Source of the DNA: Nitrososphaerales archaeon
Lineage (GTDB): Archaea > Thermoproteota > Nitrososphaeria > Nitrososphaerales > UBA213
DNA length: 64,000 bases
Reading direction: 5' to 3'
Assembly: GCA_965197925.1 (NCBI GenBank)
Contig: CBDAOC010000018.1
Coordinates: forward strand, 128,001 to 192,000
Below, one piece after another: positions 55,039-64,000 of this stretch. Under the pieces are notes generated by a model that had not been told where the DNA came from, did no database searches, and was given only the letters and a program-made list of their open reading frames with translations. The stretch's first letter is position 1; every line of letters starts with the position of its first letter. The translations under genes were made by a program, and so were the position numbers.

Positions 55039-58000
55039 TCATATGTGGCCAGTAGTTACTAAACGAAGAATAGAAAAAATTGGTTTTATATCTCCCTTAA
55101 TTATGAGCTTCACAGCGGAATAATGCCTCACCGTTCTGACAAGTCCCCCCCCAACATCATTCTCACCGCCATCTAACCTATCTATACCTATACCACCAAA
55201 CAAGTTATCATCTCCATCTTGTCCAAATAAACTGTCATCCTCTGTTCCACCAGACAAACCATCATTACCATCCCCACCAAATATACGGTCATTTCCAGAA
55301 CCACCAAATGCTCTGTCATTACCTTGACCAAGACTTATGAAGTCGTGTCCCATTCCACCACCTGCTGTATCATTACCATTTCCTCCAAATATCTTATCAT
55401 CTCCATCTCCACTACAGATTATGTCATTGCCGCCTAATCCAACTATGGTATCATTTCCTCCCAATCCATGGATTACATCAACTTCGCCTGTTCCCACAAG
55501 GATATCATTACCTGCAGTGCCTATTAGAGTAGGCATCACATTAAAGCAGTTTAGCCCAATTCCTTCAATATTTATGATACCATTAAACTCCTGGTTCATA
55601 GATGAACCATCTCTGATATCCATGTAATTTGCTTCAAGGTCCATCATCTCTGTTATCACAGATACGGGAGGAGTTTCAGGAGTGCCAGGCGTTGCATCAA
55701 CCAGTATCGCCATTGGTATGGTTATCTGTGCTACAAATGTTCCAGTATTGGTACCTGTCTCCAATAGTGTAGTATTTACTGCATTGAAGAAAGAGTCTAT
55801 TTCTCCTGGTGCACAGCTATTGGCATCACCACCTAGTATACCAGATACCGCTGGATCTACCTCTGAGCATACTCTTTCTTCACTTAACTCGAAGAAGACA
55901 AAACTATCAATGGGTAGGTGGTACCTCTCTTGGGAATCTGCTCTTCTGTTAAGGTCCTCATCCTTTATGGTCAGGAAGGCATCCTGTCCAAATGAGAATA
56001 AACTCCTATCCCATTCTATCATACCATCTCTAGTTTCGTAGTCGAATGTTACATTTACTTCCCTGAAGAAATCTACGCTGTCAGTATCGAAGTATGTGAA
56101 CGCTAATCTGTTGGGTGTAACTAATCTATTCGGTACCCACATCTTCACTGGATCACCAGTCAAGGTAATGTCAGCCAATATATCCGACACGGTGTCGAAT
56201 TGGTTGAACGTGAAAAAATCAGCCCTCCCGCTGAATACACTGGAGTTAGAACCATCTTCACCAAGGTCCATCCTGTAGGCAACGTTTGAGAATGCAGTAC
56301 CTATAGGTGAGGCGATATTGTCAGGCTCCTGATCGGTTGGTGCAGGAGAGAATACTACGCCGAGTCCAACTATGTCTACTAGTATGGTGTGGGCAACTAG
56401 ACTTATGATATCAGCCGTATCGATTATTCCTGAATCATCATCTAGTAAGAGTGTAGTTACTCTAATCTGGTCCTCTGGTTCAACCATTGGATAGTCTACC
56501 AAGTCAAGAACTCTGAATGCACCCACAGAGATCCTACTTGTTGTTAGGTCTCTGTCGAAACCAACAGCATCGCTACCTGTTAGTGTGTCCCAAGGATCAC
56601 CTGGTCCAATTACACCAGGAGACAAATCAGGTAAGCTATCATAAACTTCTCCAGTCAATGGATTTCCGTCTATGTCTCTATTGTCCGTCTCTTTTATCTG
56701 AAAGTCAACTATCTGTGATGCATGTACACATGTCTCGTCGAATGCGATCTCTGAATCTGTTTCTCCATCAGCCATACATGCTGGATCTACAGCGTCTATC
56801 TTTGCAACTAGTTGTTCGATTCCTGTTGTGGTATGAAGTTGTTGTACATTCATGTGCAGAAGGTTATACCTTGGCATGTCAACGGTAAGCAATTCATCAT
56901 CAGGTATAGGACCTGCGCCCAATAGGCCGAGAACTACATCCCTTCCTATTACCTCACCTGTAGATCTGGTGATTCTTGCTACTTGTGTGACAAAGTTCTC
57001 TTGCTGTTCATCCAGCAATGAACCGCCAAATTCCTGTAAGTTATTTACCCTTATCTGTCCCAGAATCTGGGCTTTAGTGGCCGTTGTACTGAATTGGACA
57101 TCATTGATATCGTCAATGGTTACACTGGTATCAATCATGATGGCATTGGGATTGTCAAAGCCGATCCGATCTGTGGTAAATACTAGGGAGAACTTGTCAT
57201 TTTCTGTTGGTAAATCAAATTCACTATCCCTGCTGACTGCTATAATATCAAAAAAATGAGCTTGGAACGCCTCTGGACCGAACGTGCCTCCTGTAGCGTC
57301 AACTACATCATCATCGTTGAAATCTGCAAGAACGTTAGCTCCTGTGTCATTTAGACCGAACAATGCAGTATCCCCTTGCGCTGACAAGAATATAGCTTCC
57401 CATATCTGAAGGACGTTGTTCAATGTTGGGTCAAATATTCCACCGGCATCAAGAGCAGTCCTCGTGTTAATTAGAGGGATTGGTTCTCCAACTTCTAATA
57501 TGTTGTTTGCATTCCTTCCATCACGTGGTTCACTTGCTGCGCTACTCAAGTTCTGGTCAGGATCTGTGACAATAAATACCGCTCTATCAGCAGAATCAAA
57601 AACCTCTCCATCAACACTTGTAATGCCATCATGTAAAGCAAATGGAACACTGCTGACTAAATCGAAGTACTTGAAATTAGCAATTCTGTCTCTAACACCT
57701 GCGAATATTGTAGACCTGTCACCTTTTCTTGCTTGACCCGTGTTGAAGCTGCCAGAGTTTGGTTTGGCTGATGCTTCATTGATCCTAACTACAGATGAAA
57801 GGTCTCCTGGTTGTGCAGCACTGATATCTATTGGTATAGCGGTACCTGGTAAGAATACAGTATCGATATCGTCAAATTCTGTAGTTAATCTGGCATTCTC
57901 TCTTACTAGAATGAATGAGGAGAGTCTGGTACAAAGTTCACTTCCCTATCCAGAGATTCTGAAAAGGCGAAGATCCATGCTACAGATTCAACTCCATCGT

Positions 58001-58268
58001 CAAGCTCGAGTATCTGTCTGTGGTCAAAGTCAATGTCGGGGAATATTGGAAGTACATCCTGTTTTTTAATTGATCCTTTTGGCGAGCTTAGAATCTTCTC
58101 TATGAATCCAGTGTCTTTGTTCAAGACCATAAAAAGTTGGTCAACTTCTCGTGGATTAATATTCCACTGAAAGTCGTTGATTTCGTAGAATATCTCTGCA
58201 CCCAGTAGATAAGAATTTCTATCTAGGGATGATGTAATAGATTCCGGCAAGTCATCAAATGTAAGTAT
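55039..58268 (-). pseudogene. S-layer (SlaA-like) paralog with C-terminal RTX-type Ca-binding repeats; 5'-truncated by IS and frameshifted near 57910
   Basis: LDRNSYLLGAE, VTDPDQN, LGEDGSNSSVFSG, IKDEDLN, LLETGTNTGTF motifs; GGxGxD nonapeptides at the C-terminus. Confidence 0.7.
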
Positions 58269-59148
58269 GAAGTCATCCCAATACTCTCCAATACATCATA
58301 ATCGACGAAATGATAACAAATGCCAGATAGTTTTGTGCATTCTTCTCATATCTGATCCTGGTTCTGTGGAACCCATTCTTCAACCAGGCAAAGAATCTCT
58401 CCACAACATAGCGCGTCTTGCCGTATAGGTATTGTTCTGTATTATCATTTTGTTGTTGTGTCTTACTGTTTTTTCTGTAAGGTATGCAGTCAGAGATTTT
58501 TCTTTTGGTGAGGTATTTCCTGATGAATTCTGCATCATAGCCCTTGTCTGCTTGGCACCGCGCAATTTTTCTGATAGATCTCTCATCCAGATATTGTGAG
58601 ATGCCATCCATCACGTCTACAAATCTTGCAGAGTCATGCTGATTTGCAGGACCCATCACTACTGAGACTGGCAGTCCGTTTTGTTCCACCGCAACGTGTA
58701 TTTTTGTGCCTGAAATCCTGTTGAATCCGTTGTATCCTATGACGCTTCCCCTTTTTTGGCCGGAACTGATGACGAATCGACCGTTTTTTGCAGCTGCATC
58801 TTGCCTGATCTGTGGGCTGATTTGACTGCAGCGGAGAGGATATTCTTCCATATTCCACGTCGCTGCCAGTTCTGCAGTCTGCGGTGCGCAGTTGATTTGG
58901 AGCCGTACCTTTGTGACATCCCAGTCCACCTGCATCCTGTTATCCCGACAAACAGGATTCCGTTGACTGTCTTTCTGTCGTCTGCCCTTGGCCTTCCGGT
59001 TCTGGCTGGCTTGGGGAGATGCGGTGATATCATCTTCCATTGTTCACCTGTTATCTCCTGAAATTTCATGATCTGCTACGGGCAGCATTGCAAATAGATC
59101 CAAATGATCGTCAATTATTCACTAAATGATCAGTTTTGGGATCAGTTG
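58269..59148 (-). mobile_element. IS5-family element, 880 bp, copy 2
   Basis: Same length and identical ORF translations as 9945-10824; flanks TAT/GAT, no target duplication. Confidence 0.93.
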
Positions 59149-60757
59149 GATAAAGGTAAACGTTGACTTCGTAGAACTTTCAGCTTGATGTATAACTTCC
59201 CATCCTTTTCGAATGTTTCAATGTGCTCAATATCCCGTTTTCCTAAATTACCAAACCCTCGTTGCTTCCATTTACCATTGAACCTATAAAATCCATTTTG
59301 AAGGTAGAACACGTCATCAGCATGATCCTTGGAAGAAAACTCACCTAACTCCGAGGAGTCTAGGCCAAGTTCTTTGGTGGTGCAGATTGAATCGGTTGCA
59401 AAACTAACAACACCCCTTCCCAAGGCATTATCAACCACAAATTTGTAAAGCTAAGCTCTAGTACTCCCTGTTATGGTTGCAAAAATAACAGGGCAGAATA
59501 AGTTTCCTATTACGTGTTTAACTTTCTGGCCTGTCTTTCCGTATATAGAATTTAGAATTAACTTTATGACTGATTGACGTGGATCGTTAGCAGTCTTTAG
59601 TTCCATCCTTTTCTGGTAAAGGTCTTCAATAAAGTTCTTGTATGGACGATAATCAGAGTTTGGGATAAACTGCCGAGATTGCAATATTTTATAATATGTA
59701 TTTGGACATGCTCTCAGCTCATCTATCGTTGCATATGTTATGAAACGGCCAGAAGGAAAGCTCAAGTCGCCATTAACTCTAAAAGGAAATGGTGCGATGT
59801 AATTCCCGTCTGGAATGTCTGCCAGAATTTTGAAAAAGCCTAGCTTTGCGTCATAATGAATATTGTTTCCATTTATCCACCTTCCGTCAGTCAGATCTGG
59901 AAGTTTAGCATTTTATCTGGATATGCCGAGTTTATATCATATAGGAATGCCTTGCCAATGAACCCACGTTTCAGCATCTCAAATCTTCCCCCAAAATATG
60001 ATCGAAAAGCCAAGTCCTGTACGTCATAGGGAATGGAATCAAACAGTGGAAAGTTTAACCCACTGTTTATCACCACCTTTTCTGCTAGATATGCAGGTGA
60101 GAGCCATTTTTGTGGAAAAAATCCAAAGATATCATAAAACAGATGTATCCAATGTTGTGATAACTCTTCCGTATACTTACAGTCCTGAATACAATAATTT
60201 CTTACCTCATTAGTATTACGGCGATAAAACCTTGGAGAAAATTGACTTCTATCCCCCTTGAAACCTAGATACGACTCATCTACGGGGCCTATATTATCTT
60301 GGTAATCCTTTGCAAGACCCTTACCGTAGAATTGCGCTATATCATAAAACTTTACGGAATGATGACCTTTATTGATAGTGAGACATTTTTTCGGATAGTA
60401 AGTATAGCGGTAATCTCCATACTTGAACGATAATTTTCCAGTAGTCTTATACGTGCTTAACGCATTCCCAAACACTGCTTTTAAAATAACTTCAGCATCA
60501 TATTCCAATCGATAGAAGAAATTCCATGCACCTTGGTACTTCTTACAATAAAGAAATCTTGTCAAAGACATAGGCGTTATTTTATCGAGATACCTTTTAT
60601 CAGAATCTGCTATTAGAAATACATCGCCCTGATAGGTTTCTACATCTACAGCATAGACTTTTCGTGGTTCTGATTTTGCTGGATCTCTGTACTGGATTTT
60701 ATTAGTCCATAACTTTCGTAGATCCTTGTAGTCTGTTATGGAGATGGATTCTGCCAT
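59149..60757 (-). pseudogene. polB: Family B DNA polymerase, protein-primed/casposon type; frameshift near 59905, in-frame TAG at 59451-59453, 3' end cut by IS5
   Basis: ExoI DVET, ExoII LEYD, ExoIII YCIQD, SYFGGRFE, motif A YDINSAYP, motif B KLILNSIYGKTGQ, motif C ATDSI. Confidence 0.88.
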
Positions 60758-61081
60758 ACGACATCAGGAATTGACCCTTCTTTGCCTTCTTTTCTTGCCT
60801 TGAATTCCTTTCGTATCTCCTGATATGGTACTTCCGGAAAGTTATCATGAATCAATCTTATGTAGCGATGATAATTTTTTAGTTTGCTTGACCGTGATAT
60901 TTTTCCTTCAGATTTCCTTTCTTCCTCCTCCACTTCTCTTTCAGCCCTTCTTCGCTTTTGTCTTGATTTTTTCCAGCTTTGATGTAAGCTCCTTTCTTAG
61001 TTGCCTCACCGTTCTTGTGTTTGGAAAATTCTTTAGGGTCCTTATGAGTTCAATTAATTTACTATCATCAAGTTGGGACAT
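60736..61081 (-). pseudogene. Basic helical protein overlapping the polB start (one frameshift)
   Basis: MSQLDDSKLIELIRTLKNFP... joins to ...NYHRYIRLIHDNFP..IPDVVWQNPSP. Confidence 0.6.
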
Positions 61082-61109
61082 TCATTATCACTTCCGAAAT
61101 AAAAAATCC

Positions 61110-61469
61110 TTAGGGCGATCTGCTTTCGAATTCAAAAACAAATCGCCTGATAGTTCTCCCTGTTGTCAGTGACTTCCCTAACCATGTTTTTAGTTTGAAT
61201 TTTATACCTGGTTTGATGAGTCCCTCCTCATATGTGCTCCATTGGTTCTGTAGACTGACATTGTTGGACGTGTTTGATTTCAGTAGAATTACAACGTCGT
61301 GGAATTTGTCGTCTTGTTTTAGCTGTGCTTTGACATTCGTAGAATACATGGTCTCGAATGTCTCGATATCTGTTATCTTCATCTCTAGGATGTCTGGATT
61401 GTTTGCGTCACTGGATTTGTAGGGCCCCCAATTGACGAATGGAGCCCAGTTAGTTCGGTCCTGTGTCAT
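61110..61469 (-). CDS. Hypothetical beta-rich protein, possibly OB-fold/SSB-like
   Basis: Intact ORF in the polB operon; fold is inference only. Confidence 0.55.
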   Translation of the reverse strand: MTQDRTNWAPFVNWGPYKSSDANNPDILEMKITDIETFETMYSTNVKAQLKQDDKFHDVVILLKSNTSNNVSLQNQWSTYEEGLIKPGIKFKLKTWLGKSLTTGRTIRRFVFEFESRSP

Positions 61470-61653
61470 TGCTCTTTATCCCCTTAATGGGCGTCAGAGT
61501 GAGCTTTCCATCTGTACCCATGGTCATATATACTCTCATTCCTTTATCCAGGAAATTGTCGGTGAATGTCTTAGGCAAAGTAACCACTTTTGAAAAATTC
61601 ATGGTGCTCACCTTCCTTATGCCTAGATTCAGATTCTTCTTCATATTTTTCAT
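61450..61653 (-). CDS. AbrB/MazE-like DNA-binding protein
   Basis: RKVSTMNFSKVVTLPK..LDKGMRV..GKLTLTP swapped-hairpin pattern. Confidence 0.7.
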   Translation of the reverse strand: MKNMKKNLNLGIRKVSTMNFSKVVTLPKTFTDNFLDKGMRVYMTMGTDGKLTLTPIKGIKSNDTGPN

Positions 61654-61720
61654 TTCAATCGTTATGCTTTACGTTATCTTATTATATATGACCTATGTTA
61701 AGTAGGTTGACCTATAAATA

Positions 61721-62359
61721 ATGATTAGCAGTGAACCACGCAGAACAGACAAGAGTGTCCCTAGGAGGACGGAGTTTGGAGAAGTAAAGCAAAGAGAGAT
61801 ATCGATTCTTAAAACCATCAAGGAACATCCAAACATACATCACAACGCATTGAAGAAAATTATTGTTGAGGAGCTGGATCTTGTAGCAATTAAAACATTT
61901 GACCGATTAATAAAAGAATTGATAAAAACTTACAAGATTTCTTTTACTTATGAGAATAATAAAAAGCTCTATTCGATTCCAAATATTTCAATTCTACAAG
62001 ATTCTCAGGATTTAATAATACCGTATCTAAACTCTATGAACGAGCATCTTAAAATATTTGAAAAAGTGTATCCAAGGCTGTCTTATTATGAGAAGGTTGT
62101 AATTTCAGAGCATTTTGTTAAACAATTGCTGAGTAACTTATACGGGATAGATTTGTACCGTCAAATTAATTCTGATAAAAAAATAGAAGATTATCTTCAA
62201 ATCAAAGATGATTTTATGAAAAAGATAAGGAAGATTTTAGAAATATTCTCCCACGATTCTGCCGGTGGTGCTTTAACTTCCAACCTTCTATTTAGCATAA
62301 TAAATCTGAATCCAGATCAGAATGCCGAAGTAGCCTCCCTAATGAATTCTAAGAAATAA
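61721..62359 (+). CDS. Winged-helix protein, divergent from the polB operon
   Basis: ILKTIKEHPNIHHNALKK...TFDRLIKELI...KKLY. Confidence 0.65.
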   Translation: MISSEPRRTDKSVPRRTEFGEVKQREISILKTIKEHPNIHHNALKKIIVEELDLVAIKTFDRLIKELIKTYKISFTYENNKKLYSIPNISILQDSQDLIIPYLNSMNEHLKIFEKVYPRLSYYEKVVISEHFVKQLLSNLYGIDLYRQINSDKKIEDYLQIKDDFMKKIRKILEIFSHDSAGGALTSNLLFSIINLNPDQNAEVASLMNSKK

Positions 62360-62374
62360 TAAAATTCCTCTATT

Positions 62375-62605
62375 CTAATCAGATCCACTTCCAGAGTCCA
62401 CCTTGAGGACCTCACAAAATTCTTCTACAATAGTTATTTCGGAGAGGCTCTTTACCTTTGGTTCTCTGCTTGATTGCGTTTCTATTTTTTCTTTGATTAC
62501 TTTCCGTATAGGAGCTGAAGGAGTGCATCCCTCTTTGTTGCATATATCCACTAATCTATTATGTTCATCCTCTGTAAGTTTGTTAGATACCATTCGTTGA
62601 CCCAC
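62375..62605 (-). CDS. RHH/CopG-like protein within IR arm 1
   Basis: RMVSNKLTEDEHNRLVDICNKEGCTPSAPIRKVIKE beta-alpha-alpha pattern. Confidence 0.65.
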   Translation of the reverse strand: MGQRMVSNKLTEDEHNRLVDICNKEGCTPSAPIRKVIKEKIETQSSREPKVKSLSEITIVEEFCEVLKVDSGSGSD

Positions 62606-62861
62606 GGTAGACCTAGGTAGACAATAGATAGACCTGAGCTAAAAAACTTTCGATTATAATAAATTCAACGCTTACGACAAGCGTCAGTTTTCTAGGCGTA
62701 AAAGGGGGGGATACCATTTTTATTCAGTAGCTATAAAAAGTGATTCCCCCCTCCTAGGCACGGATTTGTGTCGCTTACTAGATTATAATACACGTTATGG
62801 TCTACCTCTATAATCGAAAGTTTTTTAGCTCAGGTCTATCTATTGTCTACCTAGGTCTACC

Positions 62862-63092
62862 GTGGGTCAACGAATGGTATCTAACAAACTTACAGAGGAT
62901 GAACATAATAGATTAGTGGATATATGCAACAAAGAGGGATGCACTCCTTCAGCTCCTATACGGAAAGTAATCAAAGAAAAAATAGAAACGCAATCAAGCA
63001 GAGAACCAAAGGTAAAGAGCCTCTCCGAAATAACTATTGTAGAAGAATTTTGTGAGGTCCTCAAGGTGGACTCTGGAAGTGGATCTGATTAG
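62862..63092 (+). CDS. RHH/CopG-like protein within IR arm 2 (identical copy)
   Basis: Identical translation to 62375-62605. Confidence 0.65.
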   Translation: MGQRMVSNKLTEDEHNRLVDICNKEGCTPSAPIRKVIKEKIETQSSREPKVKSLSEITIVEEFCEVLKVDSGSGSD

Positions 63093-63247
63093 AATAGAGG
63101 AATTTTATTATTTCTAATTAAGCAATGCAGCTAAGGTAATCAATATCCTTCTTTTGGGCGATATTTTTTACCATATATAAAAACAAAGGTGTAGATCCCC
63201 AACTATAATTAACCCTATATGATCCTTATAGAATAAATGATTGAGAA

Positions 63248-63725
63248 ATGAAAGTGTGGAGATCCTTCGGGGAAGCCAGAAAGTTTGTACATTCATTAAA
63301 ACTAAAAAATAAGAACGAGTGGCAACAATATTGCAAGTCTGACGAAAAACCTGGTGATATTCCGTCTTCACCGGATAAGATCTATCGAAATAAGAGTTGG
63401 TATGGTTATCTTGACTGGTTAGGGAACGAGGCGAAAAGGGGTAGAAAACTTTGGCTAGGAAAGCATTTTGCAGAAGAACGTCAGAGAAAGCTGAACAAGG
63501 CGGGAAGGGGTAGAAAGAAATCGGAAGAACATAAAAGAAAGAAGAGCAGGTAAAAACGGTAAAAAAAGAACAGAAGAATCAAAGAGAAAGATGAGTGAGG
63601 CGGCAAAGGGCAAAACAAATTCTGGTCACTTCAAAAAAGAGGTAATACCTTAAAATAGAGGAAAAAGAGGAGTATATTCAGAAGAAACTAAGAGAAAGAA
63701 GAGCGAGGCGATGAATGGTAAAAAG
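63248..63725 (+). pseudogene. Integrase-repeat-like unit plus NUMOD3 DNA-binding repeats (homing-endonuclease-like), frameshifted and truncated
   Basis: SFGEARKFVHSLKLK...EW...IPSSPDKIY...W...DWLG followed by KKSEEHKRK, RTEESKRKMSEAAKGK, YSEETKRKKSEAMNGK. Confidence 0.65.
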
Positions 63726-64000
63726 AGTATCCCCCTCCTAGGCACGGATTTGTGTCGCTTATCTAAATTAATACGCAGGTTATGATTAGTTGGATAATGG
63801 TTAAGATCTTAATAAGTCAATACATTGTGAAAAGTTTATTCTTGCACAGTTATGGACTTTTAATAAAAGTCAAGAATATCAGATTAGTATTCTCTTAAGG
63901 AATAGATCCCTTCAATGACAATAGGGAAATCTTAGAGCTGCCTGCAAGAGCTTGTCCATTTTAAAGTGATCATACAGGGGAATGGTTATGTTTCTATTGA

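What the first reader, a model, noticed from the sequence alone, without database searches (positions are those of the whole stretch)
59149..62359. Casposon-like PolB module lacking its casposase
Seen: operon AbrB-like > 119-aa protein > basic helical protein > PolB, with a divergent wHTH gene. PolB has all exonuclease and polymerase motifs but carries a frameshift, an in-frame TAG and an IS5 truncation. Known: thaumarchaeal family-1 casposons encode protein-primed PolB plus Cas1. Inference: cas1 or another integrase was lost at the IS5 junction. The basic protein overlapping the polB start is a candidate terminal or priming protein, and the 119-aa protein a candidate SSB.
Basis: partly seen in the sequence, partly recalled or inferred. 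Interest (0 to 1): 0.7.

Follow-up and report, generated by a model that had tools for sequence, protein, structure and literature searches.

The report
Decayed family-1 casposon, right end
This is the broken right-hand end of a known kind of archaeal self-copying transposon (a casposon); it is ordinary as an element, but comparing its small genes with relatives points to the serine that may prime its replication and to its single-strand-binding protein.

Summary
The basic gene is itself frameshifted. A casposase (cas1) relic lies 1.4 kb right of the finding, behind its own terminal repeat. The lesions are real (identical contigs in three studies). The PolB is 58-61% identical to those of published Nitrosopumilus/Nitrosotalea family-1 casposons and nests among them (99%). 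The three small upstream genes are the family's known conserved trio. A family-type TIR ends the element at about 62721, followed by a 13-bp TSD-like spacer and a second TIR: a tandem-casposon junction. The left part, probably with the element's own cas1, was lost or moved at the IS5; a matching polB 3' end lies on contig C20. The element is dead as an autonomous unit. The scan found family-1 casposons before on other DNA, and the terminal-protein idea was published in 2014. Added here: the basic protein's only invariant columns are a C-terminal Asn-Pro-Ser (134 sequences; Ser kept across TCN and AGY codons), a candidate priming residue. The 119-aa protein models as an OB fold nearest gp32, PRD1 P12 and phi29-type SSBs (weak scores). 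These PolBs keep TPR1 but lack most of TPR2. None of these roles is shown.

The parts
58269..59148 (-). IS5-family insertion sequence at the junction; its flanks match at only 2 of 3 bases, and genes on both sides are truncated
   Evidence: Pfam DDE_Tnp_1 and DUF4096; 38 full copies; 12 of 34 copies with both ends found have an exact 3-bp duplication, this one does not
59149..60757 (-). Protein-primed-type PolB pseudogene: frameshift at about 59915, TAG at 59451-59453, about 59 C-terminal residues missing
   Evidence: PF03175; 379 homologues, best 65% identical; tree; contigs of 3 studies identical
60736..61081 (-). Basic helical protein gene, split by a frameshift (between about 60945 and 61000); ends in WQNPSP and overlaps the polB start by 22 nt; terminal-protein candidate
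61110..61469 (-). 119-aa OB-fold protein, open frame; SSB candidate; occupies the position of arCOG14992 in published casposon tables
61450..61653 (-). 67-aa AbrB/MazE-like gene, open frame; position of arCOG14321; probable regulator (inferred)
   Evidence: (E 0.059)
61721..62359 (+). 212-aa divergent gene with a probable N-terminal winged helix
   Evidence: weak Pfam hits; homologues beside some relatives
62375..62605 (-). 76-aa RHH-like gene inside arm 1 of the inverted repeat
   Evidence: weak hits
62352..62658 (.). Arm 1 of a perfect 307-nt inverted repeat (subterminal DNA of the PolB element)
   Evidence: a 307-nt contig at 1.5-1.8 times the depth of the unique contig in 3 runs
62666..62721 (-). 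TIR-A: family-1-type terminal repeat facing the PolB element; its right end
   Evidence: resembles published TIRs
62722..62734 (-). 13-bp spacer between the two TIRs; on the minus strand it has A1, A11, T13 and a TTT leader, as a family-1 TSD does; no twin found
62735..62790 (+). TIR-B: end of a second, tandem casposon; 96% identical over 50 nt to the TIR behind the aEF-2 gene on C1
62809..63115 (.). Arm 2 of the 307-nt inverted repeat, with a second copy of the RHH-like gene (62862-63092, +)
63248..63553 (+). 101-aa basic ORF followed by decayed repeats; cargo relic
   Evidence: INT_rpt E 0.039, weak
63720..63775 (+). TIR-B': a third casposon end, in front of the cas1 relic
63782..64000 (+). 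Decayed 5' part of a casposase (cas1): stops, a frameshift, truncated after about 100 codons (ends about 85 nt past the window)
   Evidence: 64-78% identical to casposon Cas1 of L112/L114/L118/L121; Pfam Cas_Cas1 E 0.01 for one of two pieces
57906..58268 (-). Host gene cut at its 5' side by the same IS5 junction; a paralogue on C20 runs about 300 codons further upstream

Best explanation
This is the right-hand 3.6 kb of a family-1 casposon, dead as an autonomous unit, at a tandem casposon junction in an IS-riddled thaumarchaeal genome. SHOWN: family-1 PolB, the conserved three-gene block, a family-type TIR, a TSD-like spacer and a neighbouring TIR; real lesions in polB and the basic gene. INFERRED history: IS5 activity (insertion, then deletion or recombination between copies) removed or relocated everything left of polB codon ~536, probably cargo, cas1 and the left TIR, and fused the stump to a 5'-truncated host gene. 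The polB 3' end with EVE/AAA cargo and a convergent cas1 3' end on C20 may be the missing middle. The cas1 relic at 63782 belongs to a different casposon. INFERRED mechanism of the ancestor: Cas1 integrates at a 13-bp target. For copying, the basic protein binds PolB (TPR1 is present) and the terminal DNA and offers the hydroxyl of its C-terminal NPS serine as primer. The OB-fold protein coats single-stranded DNA, which would help a PolB that lacks most of the TPR2 strand-displacement hairpin. AbrB-like, wHTH and RHH proteins regulate expression.
For: PolB N-half is 58-61% identical to PolBs named by their sources for N. koreensis AR1, N. sediminis, N. adriaticus and Nt. devaniterrae, species with published family-1 casposons; it nests in their clade at 99% SH-aLRT with His1/His2 outside (29 rows). 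Basic gene in 32 of 32 named loci with >=500 nt upstream; 119-aa gene in 18 of 32 with >=1300 nt; cas1 in 19 of 19 full-flank loci. TIR pattern: 6 matches in the genome, 3 of them in this window, against 2, 0, 0 in three simulated genomes. N-P-S are the only invariant columns in 134 sequences; 120 of 120 best hits end NPSP; Ser in 36 of 36 loci where the motif was found (37 examined), 22 TCN and 14 AGY, also where it does not overlap polB coding sequence. 119-aa model: pLDDT 84.6, five strands plus a helix; best matches T4 gp32 (Z 5.6, rmsd 3.6, 96 aligned) and PRD1 SSB P12 (Z 5.4, rmsd 3.9, 100 aligned); nearest Pfam-bearing Atlas cluster is Phi29_Phage_SSB (0.90; 13% of members). Against phi29 polymerase the A-to-B region aligns throughout while 17 residues of TPR2 have no counterpart; motif B to TxxxR is 20-24 residues in casposon PolBs, 58 and 64 in His1 and His2. 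The C20 polB piece starts at residue 538-539, the window's ends at 535-536, and both have P0004 as best of 120 homologues.
Against: No left TIR, no twin TSD and no cas1 inside the element. In 10 of 10 named full-flank relatives with the 119-aa gene cas1 is upstream and co-oriented, so its lost position is uncertain. No IS lies beside the C20 polB piece, and score ranks of the two pieces correlate only weakly (rho 0.21). The basic protein has no fold match to any known terminal protein and no sequence family. The SSB fold scores are below the tools' own bars (no PDB Foldseek hit at E<=0.001; Z<8; no Pfam SSB hit in 21 members). Among 85 distant representatives only 50 end in NPS; many of the rest stop short of the C-terminus, but some carry variants such as NLS or NVS.
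Confidence: 0.85

Rival explanations
1. Same relic, different history: the element had the majority layout (TIR, cas1, cargo, abrB, SSB, basic gene, polB, all co-oriented). Its cas1 was lost or flipped on the RIGHT side during the rearrangement that made the 307-nt inverted repeat, and the relic at 63782 is its own inverted casposase.
For: 10 of 10 named full-flank relatives with the 119-aa gene have cas1 upstream and co-oriented; a cas1 relic does lie upstream; the region has clearly been rearranged.
Against: The relic has its own outward TIR and the wrong orientation. TIR-A continues into the subterminal DNA as it does at a homologous end on C18 (73% over 109 nt). The window's PolB groups (99%) with L051, which has abrB and the 119-aa gene yet cas1 downstream and convergent; the published NitEve-C1 table shows that layout too (not counted as independent of L051).
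Confidence: 0.2
2. The basic protein is not a covalent primer but a DNA-binding or polymerase-accessory factor; its invariant tail is a docking motif, and PolB is primed by a hairpin 3' end, a host primase or itself (as pipolin PolBs are).
For: No structural likeness to solved terminal proteins was found. At about 110-130 aa it is small. Pipolin PolBs keep TPR1/TPR2 yet need no terminal protein (PMC5695915 passages). The TIR junction folds back well as ssDNA (z -3.2).
Against: It is the one gene always kept next to polB (32 of 32). The invariant residue is a hydroxyl residue kept across both Ser codon blocks. The nearest sister PolBs belong to His1/His2, whose genomes carry terminal proteins (PMC4284463, PMC7221443 passages), and their polB-upstream ORFs also have a penultimate Ser.
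Confidence: 0.35
3. Relic of a virus or linear plasmid (His1/His2-like, tectivirus-like) or a pipolin rather than a casposon.
For: PolB is of the organellar/viral type; relatives at 25-32% identity occur in viruses and virus-like contigs.
Against: No close relative in viral contigs; best of 25 phage records about 25-28% identical; casposon TIRs and gene trio present; 19 of 19 relatives carry cas1.
Confidence: 0.03

Closest known systems
Family 1 casposons of Thaumarchaeota (NitAR1-C1, NitAR2-C1, NitNF5-C1/C2, NitDev-C1; Krupovic 2014 PMC4046053, 2019 PMC6563490)
   Same: PolB 58-61% identical to source-named proteins of these species; same three small genes upstream of polB; same TIR type; tandem TIR-TSD-TIR junction as described for NitNF5; the genome also has a TIR behind aEF-2.
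   Different: Pseudogenised and cut by IS5; no cas1 or left TIR inside; the spacer is not the aEF-2 target; a 307-nt perfect inverted duplication of subterminal DNA surrounds the junction.
NitEve-C1 (Ca. Nitrososphaera evergladensis), as tabulated in the 2019 supplement
   Same: Layout polB(-), arCOG14992(-), arCOG14321(-), divergent HxlR-type HTH gene(+), small genes, TIR; cas1 at the far end, convergent with polB; similar TIR sequence.
   Different: NitEve-C1 is complete (11.3 kb) with HEPN and ATPase cargo; here the cas1 half is missing.
Protein-primed replicons: phi29, PRD1, haloviruses His1/His2
   Same: PolB with a TPR1-length insertion; small basic gene directly upstream of polB; an SSB-like fold nearest PRD1 P12 and phi29-type clusters.
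   Different: PolB only about 25% identical to His1/His2; TPR2 largely absent; integration by Cas1; no capsid gene in this stretch; candidate priming residue is penultimate, not internal (internal positions in phi29 and PRD1 are recalled, from no call).

Membership tests
Family 1 casposon | Protein-primed-type PolB in the family-1 clade, sister to His1/His2 | tested here: met
   (99% clade of 22 rows); the gene is broken
Family 1 casposon | Three conserved small genes directly upstream of polB | tested here: met
   the third is frameshifted here
Family 1 casposon | Family-type terminal inverted repeat at an end | tested here: met
   TIR-A at about 62666-62721
Family 1 casposon | Paired TIRs enclosing the element | tested here: not met
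   No TIR left of polB in the window; so this is a fragment by descent, not an intact member
Family 1 casposon | Casposase cas1 inside the element | tested here: not met
   None between IS5 and TIR-A; relic outside at 63782; 6 Cas1 matches elsewhere in the genome
Family 1 casposon | 13-bp target-site duplication (A1, A11, T13, TTT leader; PMC8464041) | tested here: inconclusive
   Spacer 62722-62734 fits the rules on the minus strand, but no twin beside a TIR was found with up to 2 mismatches
Family 1 casposon | No capsid genes | tested here: inconclusive
   None among the ORFs scanned in this stretch; cargo of relatives was not scanned for capsids; no close PolB in viral contigs
Protein-primed replication system | TPR1 subdomain in PolB | tested here: met
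   About 130 residues between motifs A and B, aligning along phi29 polymerase; sequence level only
Protein-primed replication system | Full TPR2 subdomain in PolB | tested here: not met
   20-24 residues between motif B and TxxxR; 17 phi29 residues unmatched; no structure of this PolB was examined
Protein-primed replication system | Terminal protein covalently primes synthesis through Ser, Thr or Tyr | not testable with these tools
   Invariant C-terminal Ser is a candidate
phi29/PRD1/gp32-type SSB | OB fold of that type | tested here: inconclusive
   OB-like model; best Z 5.6 and 5.4; Atlas lead 0.90; no Pfam hit
Pipolin | piPolB clade with a tyrosine integrase | not tested
   No pipolin sequence was in the tree; no integrase among the ORFs scanned here
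His1/His2-like virus | PolB in the viral clade, with structural genes | tested here: not met
   About 25% identity, outside the clade

The most novel reading that the evidence does not exclude
Family-1 casposons carry a complete, minimal protein-primed replication kit not characterised so far: a 110-130-aa terminal protein that primes from a penultimate C-terminal serine (NPSP), a phi29/PRD1-type SSB (arCOG14992), and a TPR2-less PolB that depends on that SSB or on a single-stranded template. Priming from a C-terminal tail may extend to the sister archaeal clade: the polB-upstream ORFs of His1 (ends GSP), His2 (RSS), L075-L077 (TY/SY) and L150 (GSP) also have a penultimate Ser/Thr (7 of 17 lineages against a 13% background, p about 0.004, post hoc). 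That would also name the terminal-protein genes of His1 and His2.
Probability: 0.4. Interest if true: 0.68.

Novelty: new member of a known kind. Interest (0 to 1): 0.36.

Why it matters
The element itself matters little: it is a dead fragment of a kind described in 2014, filed with family 1 by descent only. What has value is the comparative result. Casposon replication is, in the papers seen, a model without experiment, and the primer is an open question. One invariant serine, one SSB candidate and one missing subdomain give three direct in-vitro tests on intact relatives. The locus also shows how tandem casposon arrays are broken up by IS expansion.

Tried and rejected
Complex prediction of an intact PolB with its basic protein: no answer (score 0.02, mark 0.32); it counts neither way. 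Fold searches with the basic-protein model: only generic helical matches. Profile comparison of the basic family with polB-upstream ORFs of L075, L074 and His1: not significant (probability 3.6, 0.4 and 1.1%); an HMM gave L075 E 0.0004 among only 7 sequences, a lead at most. Search for an intact near-identical element: the metagenome scan gave 5 distant loci only; viral scans gave none close; the 119-aa search gave 6 hits, one 99% identical, without DNA context. Twin TSD: not found. Sequencing error or mis-assembly as the cause of lesions and inverted repeat: rejected, though contigs cannot fix the orientation of the 150 nt between the arms. No RNA holder listed. tRNA genes in the window: none. 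My errors: the first tree held a wrong row (an aminotransferase-like ORF taken for host PolB) and was replaced, which uses 29 rows and leaves out that row, ABV2, MetSV and several close or long-branch rows; the C1 cas1 query was out of frame and corrected; two rows (x1, x2) are not TIRs. Literature: searches casposon + terminal protein, + OB-fold (88), + TPR2 (94), + PRD1 P12 (79) listed 3, 4, 2, 2 and 0 papers; in the passages read I saw no priming residue, SSB assignment or TPR2 remark for casposons. The library lacks most subscription papers, two OB-fold listings and one terminal-protein listing were not opened, and unseen supplements could hold such assignments.
Full report
1. What is in the sequence. 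The minus strand carries a 67-aa AbrB-like gene (61450-61653), a 119-aa gene (61110-61469), a basic gene (60736-61081) and polB (start 60757); a 212-aa gene (61721-62359) points the other way. PolB has a frameshift at about 59915 and a TAG at 59451-59453, and stops at 59149, where an IS5 begins (58269-59148). Homologues are about 594 aa, so about 59 residues are missing. One contig covers 59124-62381 without a difference in 3 of 4 runs laid, from three studies; the fourth covers it in pieces. One run may be the source sample, but the lesions are not errors. Exonuclease motifs I-III and polymerase motifs A, B and TxxxR are present. Motif C reads ATDS, as it reads ATDS or ATDC in close relatives and His1/His2; PMC11161782 (passages) notes active PolBs without that Asp.

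2. What it belongs to. The N-terminal half finds 379 longer proteins, the best 65% identical; those named by their sources include PolBs of N. koreensis AR1, N. sediminis, N. adriaticus and Nt. devaniterrae at 58-61%. These species carry the published family-1 casposons (PMC6563490: passages, supplement file 1 part 2 of 29, four rows of file 3). Of 300 other genomes of the class, 24 have a match (the count includes the unpublished G132). In a 29-row quick tree the PolB lies in a 99% clade of 22 rows with those proteins; His1/His2 and L075/L076 form a separate group and two tectiviruses lie further out. No pipolin or cellular PolB was included. Viral contigs hold no close relative; the best of 25 phage records are about 25-28% identical. 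From 76 named loci I took 36 whose match includes most of polB or its 5' part. The basic gene precedes polB in 32 of 32 with enough flank and the 119-aa gene in 18 of 32; cas1 is present in 19 of 19 with at least 7 kb on both sides (34 loci scanned). A set of 27 unnamed loci gave the same picture; the two sets come from the same kind of collection and are not independent. [quoted passage not shown]

3. Ends. A pattern modelled on the TIR-like repeats here and on the published TIRs matches six places in the genome, against 2, 0 and 0 in three simulated genomes. Three are in this window: TIR-A facing left (about 62666-62721), TIR-B facing right (from 62735) and TIR-B' (from 63720). The 13 bp between A and B have, on the minus strand, A1, A11, T13 and a TTT leader, the determinants reported for the N. 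koreensis casposase (PMC8464041, abstract and passages). No twin was found. The same TIR-spacer-TIR form appears in several related loci, and tandem integration is published for NitNF5. So the PolB element ends at TIR-A and a second casposon began at TIR-B. A perfect 307-nt inverted repeat surrounds the junction; it assembles as its own 307-nt contig at 1.5-1.8 times the neighbouring depth, so it is a real two-copy sequence. Behind TIR-B' lies the decayed 5' part of a casposase (63782 onward), 64-78% identical to Cas1 of four related loci and only 37% over 30 residues to the open cas1 on C1.

4. Where did the element's cas1 go? The IS5 has non-identical 3-bp flanks (12 of 34 copies have identical ones) and the host gene on its left lacks about 300 codons that a paralogue has. 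Truncation on both sides points to a deletion or recombination, not a plain insertion (inference). A polB 3' end starting at residue 538-539 lies on C20, followed by EVE/AAA cargo and a convergent cas1 3' end; it and the window's C-terminal piece share the same best homologue among 120. The published NitEve-C1 table has the window's layout with cas1 beyond polB, as does L051, in the PolB's 99% subclade; I do not count these two as independent. Against this, 10 of 10 named full-flank relatives with the 119-aa gene have cas1 upstream and co-oriented, and no IS borders the C20 piece. I put loss at the IS5 side at about 75-80%.

5. The basic protein. Homologues are about 105-130 aa, very basic (pI 10.4 for P0137) and helical (pLDDT 90.8, pTM 0.54), with no known fold or family. 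In 134 sequences the only invariant columns are the C-terminal N-P-S; 120 of 120 best hits end NPSP; 50 of 85 distant representatives end in NPS, the rest being mostly matches that stop short, or variants such as NLS. The motif often overlaps the polB start by 22 nt, but the constraint is not from polB: in loci with a 4-nt overlap the polB frame has stops there, and the Ser is kept in 36 of 36 loci where the motif was found (37 examined), 22 times as TCN and 14 times as AGY. Protein priming needs a Ser, Thr or Tyr hydroxyl (established knowledge), so this Ser is the natural candidate. ORFs upstream of polB in His1, His2, L075-L077, L150, L162, L071 and ABV2 have a penultimate Ser/Thr; those of L074, L078, L083, L086, L087, L151/152, L161, L166, Badulia and Toil do not: 7 of 17 against 13% background, p about 0.004, post hoc and with hand-chosen ORFs. 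Profile comparisons with these ORFs were not significant. That this gene 'could encode a terminal protein' is in PMC4046053; I found no priming residue in the passages read.

6. The 119-aa protein and PolB. The model (pLDDT 84.6) has five strands and one helix. Foldseek returns mostly OB-fold proteins, none at E<=0.001 in the PDB and one uncharacterised viral protein at 3e-4. The wide search ranks T4 gp32 (Z 5.6) and PRD1 SSB P12 (Z 5.4, 100 of 117 residues) first; the Atlas lead is Phi29_Phage_SSB (0.90, 13% of members). Each is weak; together they make an SSB likely (about 70%), and the gene is dispensable in some lineages. PolB aligns with phi29 polymerase through the TPR1 region but lacks 17 residues of TPR2; the segment is 20-24 residues in casposons against 58 and 64 in His1/His2, and is also short in L076 (19) and Toil (25). 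TPR2 gives processivity and strand displacement (PMC5695915, PMC11161782 passages), so an SSB-assisted or single-stranded-template mode fits the 2014 model. This is inference from sequence.

7. Verdict. The stretch is a family-1 casposon fragment by descent. It fails the tests for an intact member (no paired TIR, no internal cas1) and is dead as an autonomous unit. Earlier notes of this scan report intact family-1 casposons and the same module in other genomes and another relic in this one. Interest 0.36: ordinary as an element, raised by three testable predictions on how casposons replicate.

Noticed in passing
G000:C20 about 205100-205554 (L061:9100-9556) and L054 at about 12686: A family-1 TIR followed by a cas1 5' fragment sits directly behind the GMP synthase (guaA) stop codon; a TIR behind a near-identical gene end occurs in L054. 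The targets named in the 2019 passages read are ef-2, phosphoribosylamine-glycine ligase and an intergenic site, so guaA may be a further target.
   Followed up: partly
G000:C1:31612-32805 (L059:9613-10806): Open 398-aa casposase-type cas1 between IS elements, with no TIR pattern match nearby and no polB; 65% identical to the Cas1 in L051.
   Followed up: partly
G000:C20:1009847-1015011 (L072): polB 3' end, a 1011-aa EVE + AAA_5 protein, a 475-aa partner gene and a convergent cas1 3' end (92% identical to the C1 gene over 64 nt): the middle of a casposon with restriction-like cargo ('McrBC-like' is my recalled label).
   Followed up: partly
window 62352-63115: Perfect 307-nt inverted duplication around the TIR/TSD/TIR junction; both inner breakpoints share TATAA. 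Template switching at the imperfect TIR palindrome is my inference; the central 150 nt could be invertible.
   Followed up: partly
G000:C18 about 192600-195030 (L007:7615-10015): A TBP gene right after the cas1 relic, then another decayed TIR preceded by an aEF-2-like target sequence, a DUF5615 gene and an RHH-like gene 47% identical to the window's.
   Followed up: no
G000:C20 about 766100-766360: A TIR-B'-like end lies about 150 nt from a second, weak polB 3' fragment: a collapsed casposon remnant.
   Followed up: no
whole genome: Heavy IS expansion: 38 full copies of this IS5 plus many copies of related elements at 65-70% identity; only 12 of 34 copies keep an exact 3-bp duplication, which points to frequent IS-mediated rearrangement.
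   Followed up: partly
window 55039-58268 (-): Large host gene in several pieces with RTX-type calcium-binding repeats at its end and paralogues on C20; it looks like a thaumarchaeal S-layer-type protein (recalled label, no call).
   Followed up: no
L075, L074: Uncharacterised 9-11 kb contigs with a distant protein-primed-type PolB, a small upstream gene, an ATPase-like gene and membrane-protein-like ORFs: probable small viruses or plasmids.
   Followed up: no
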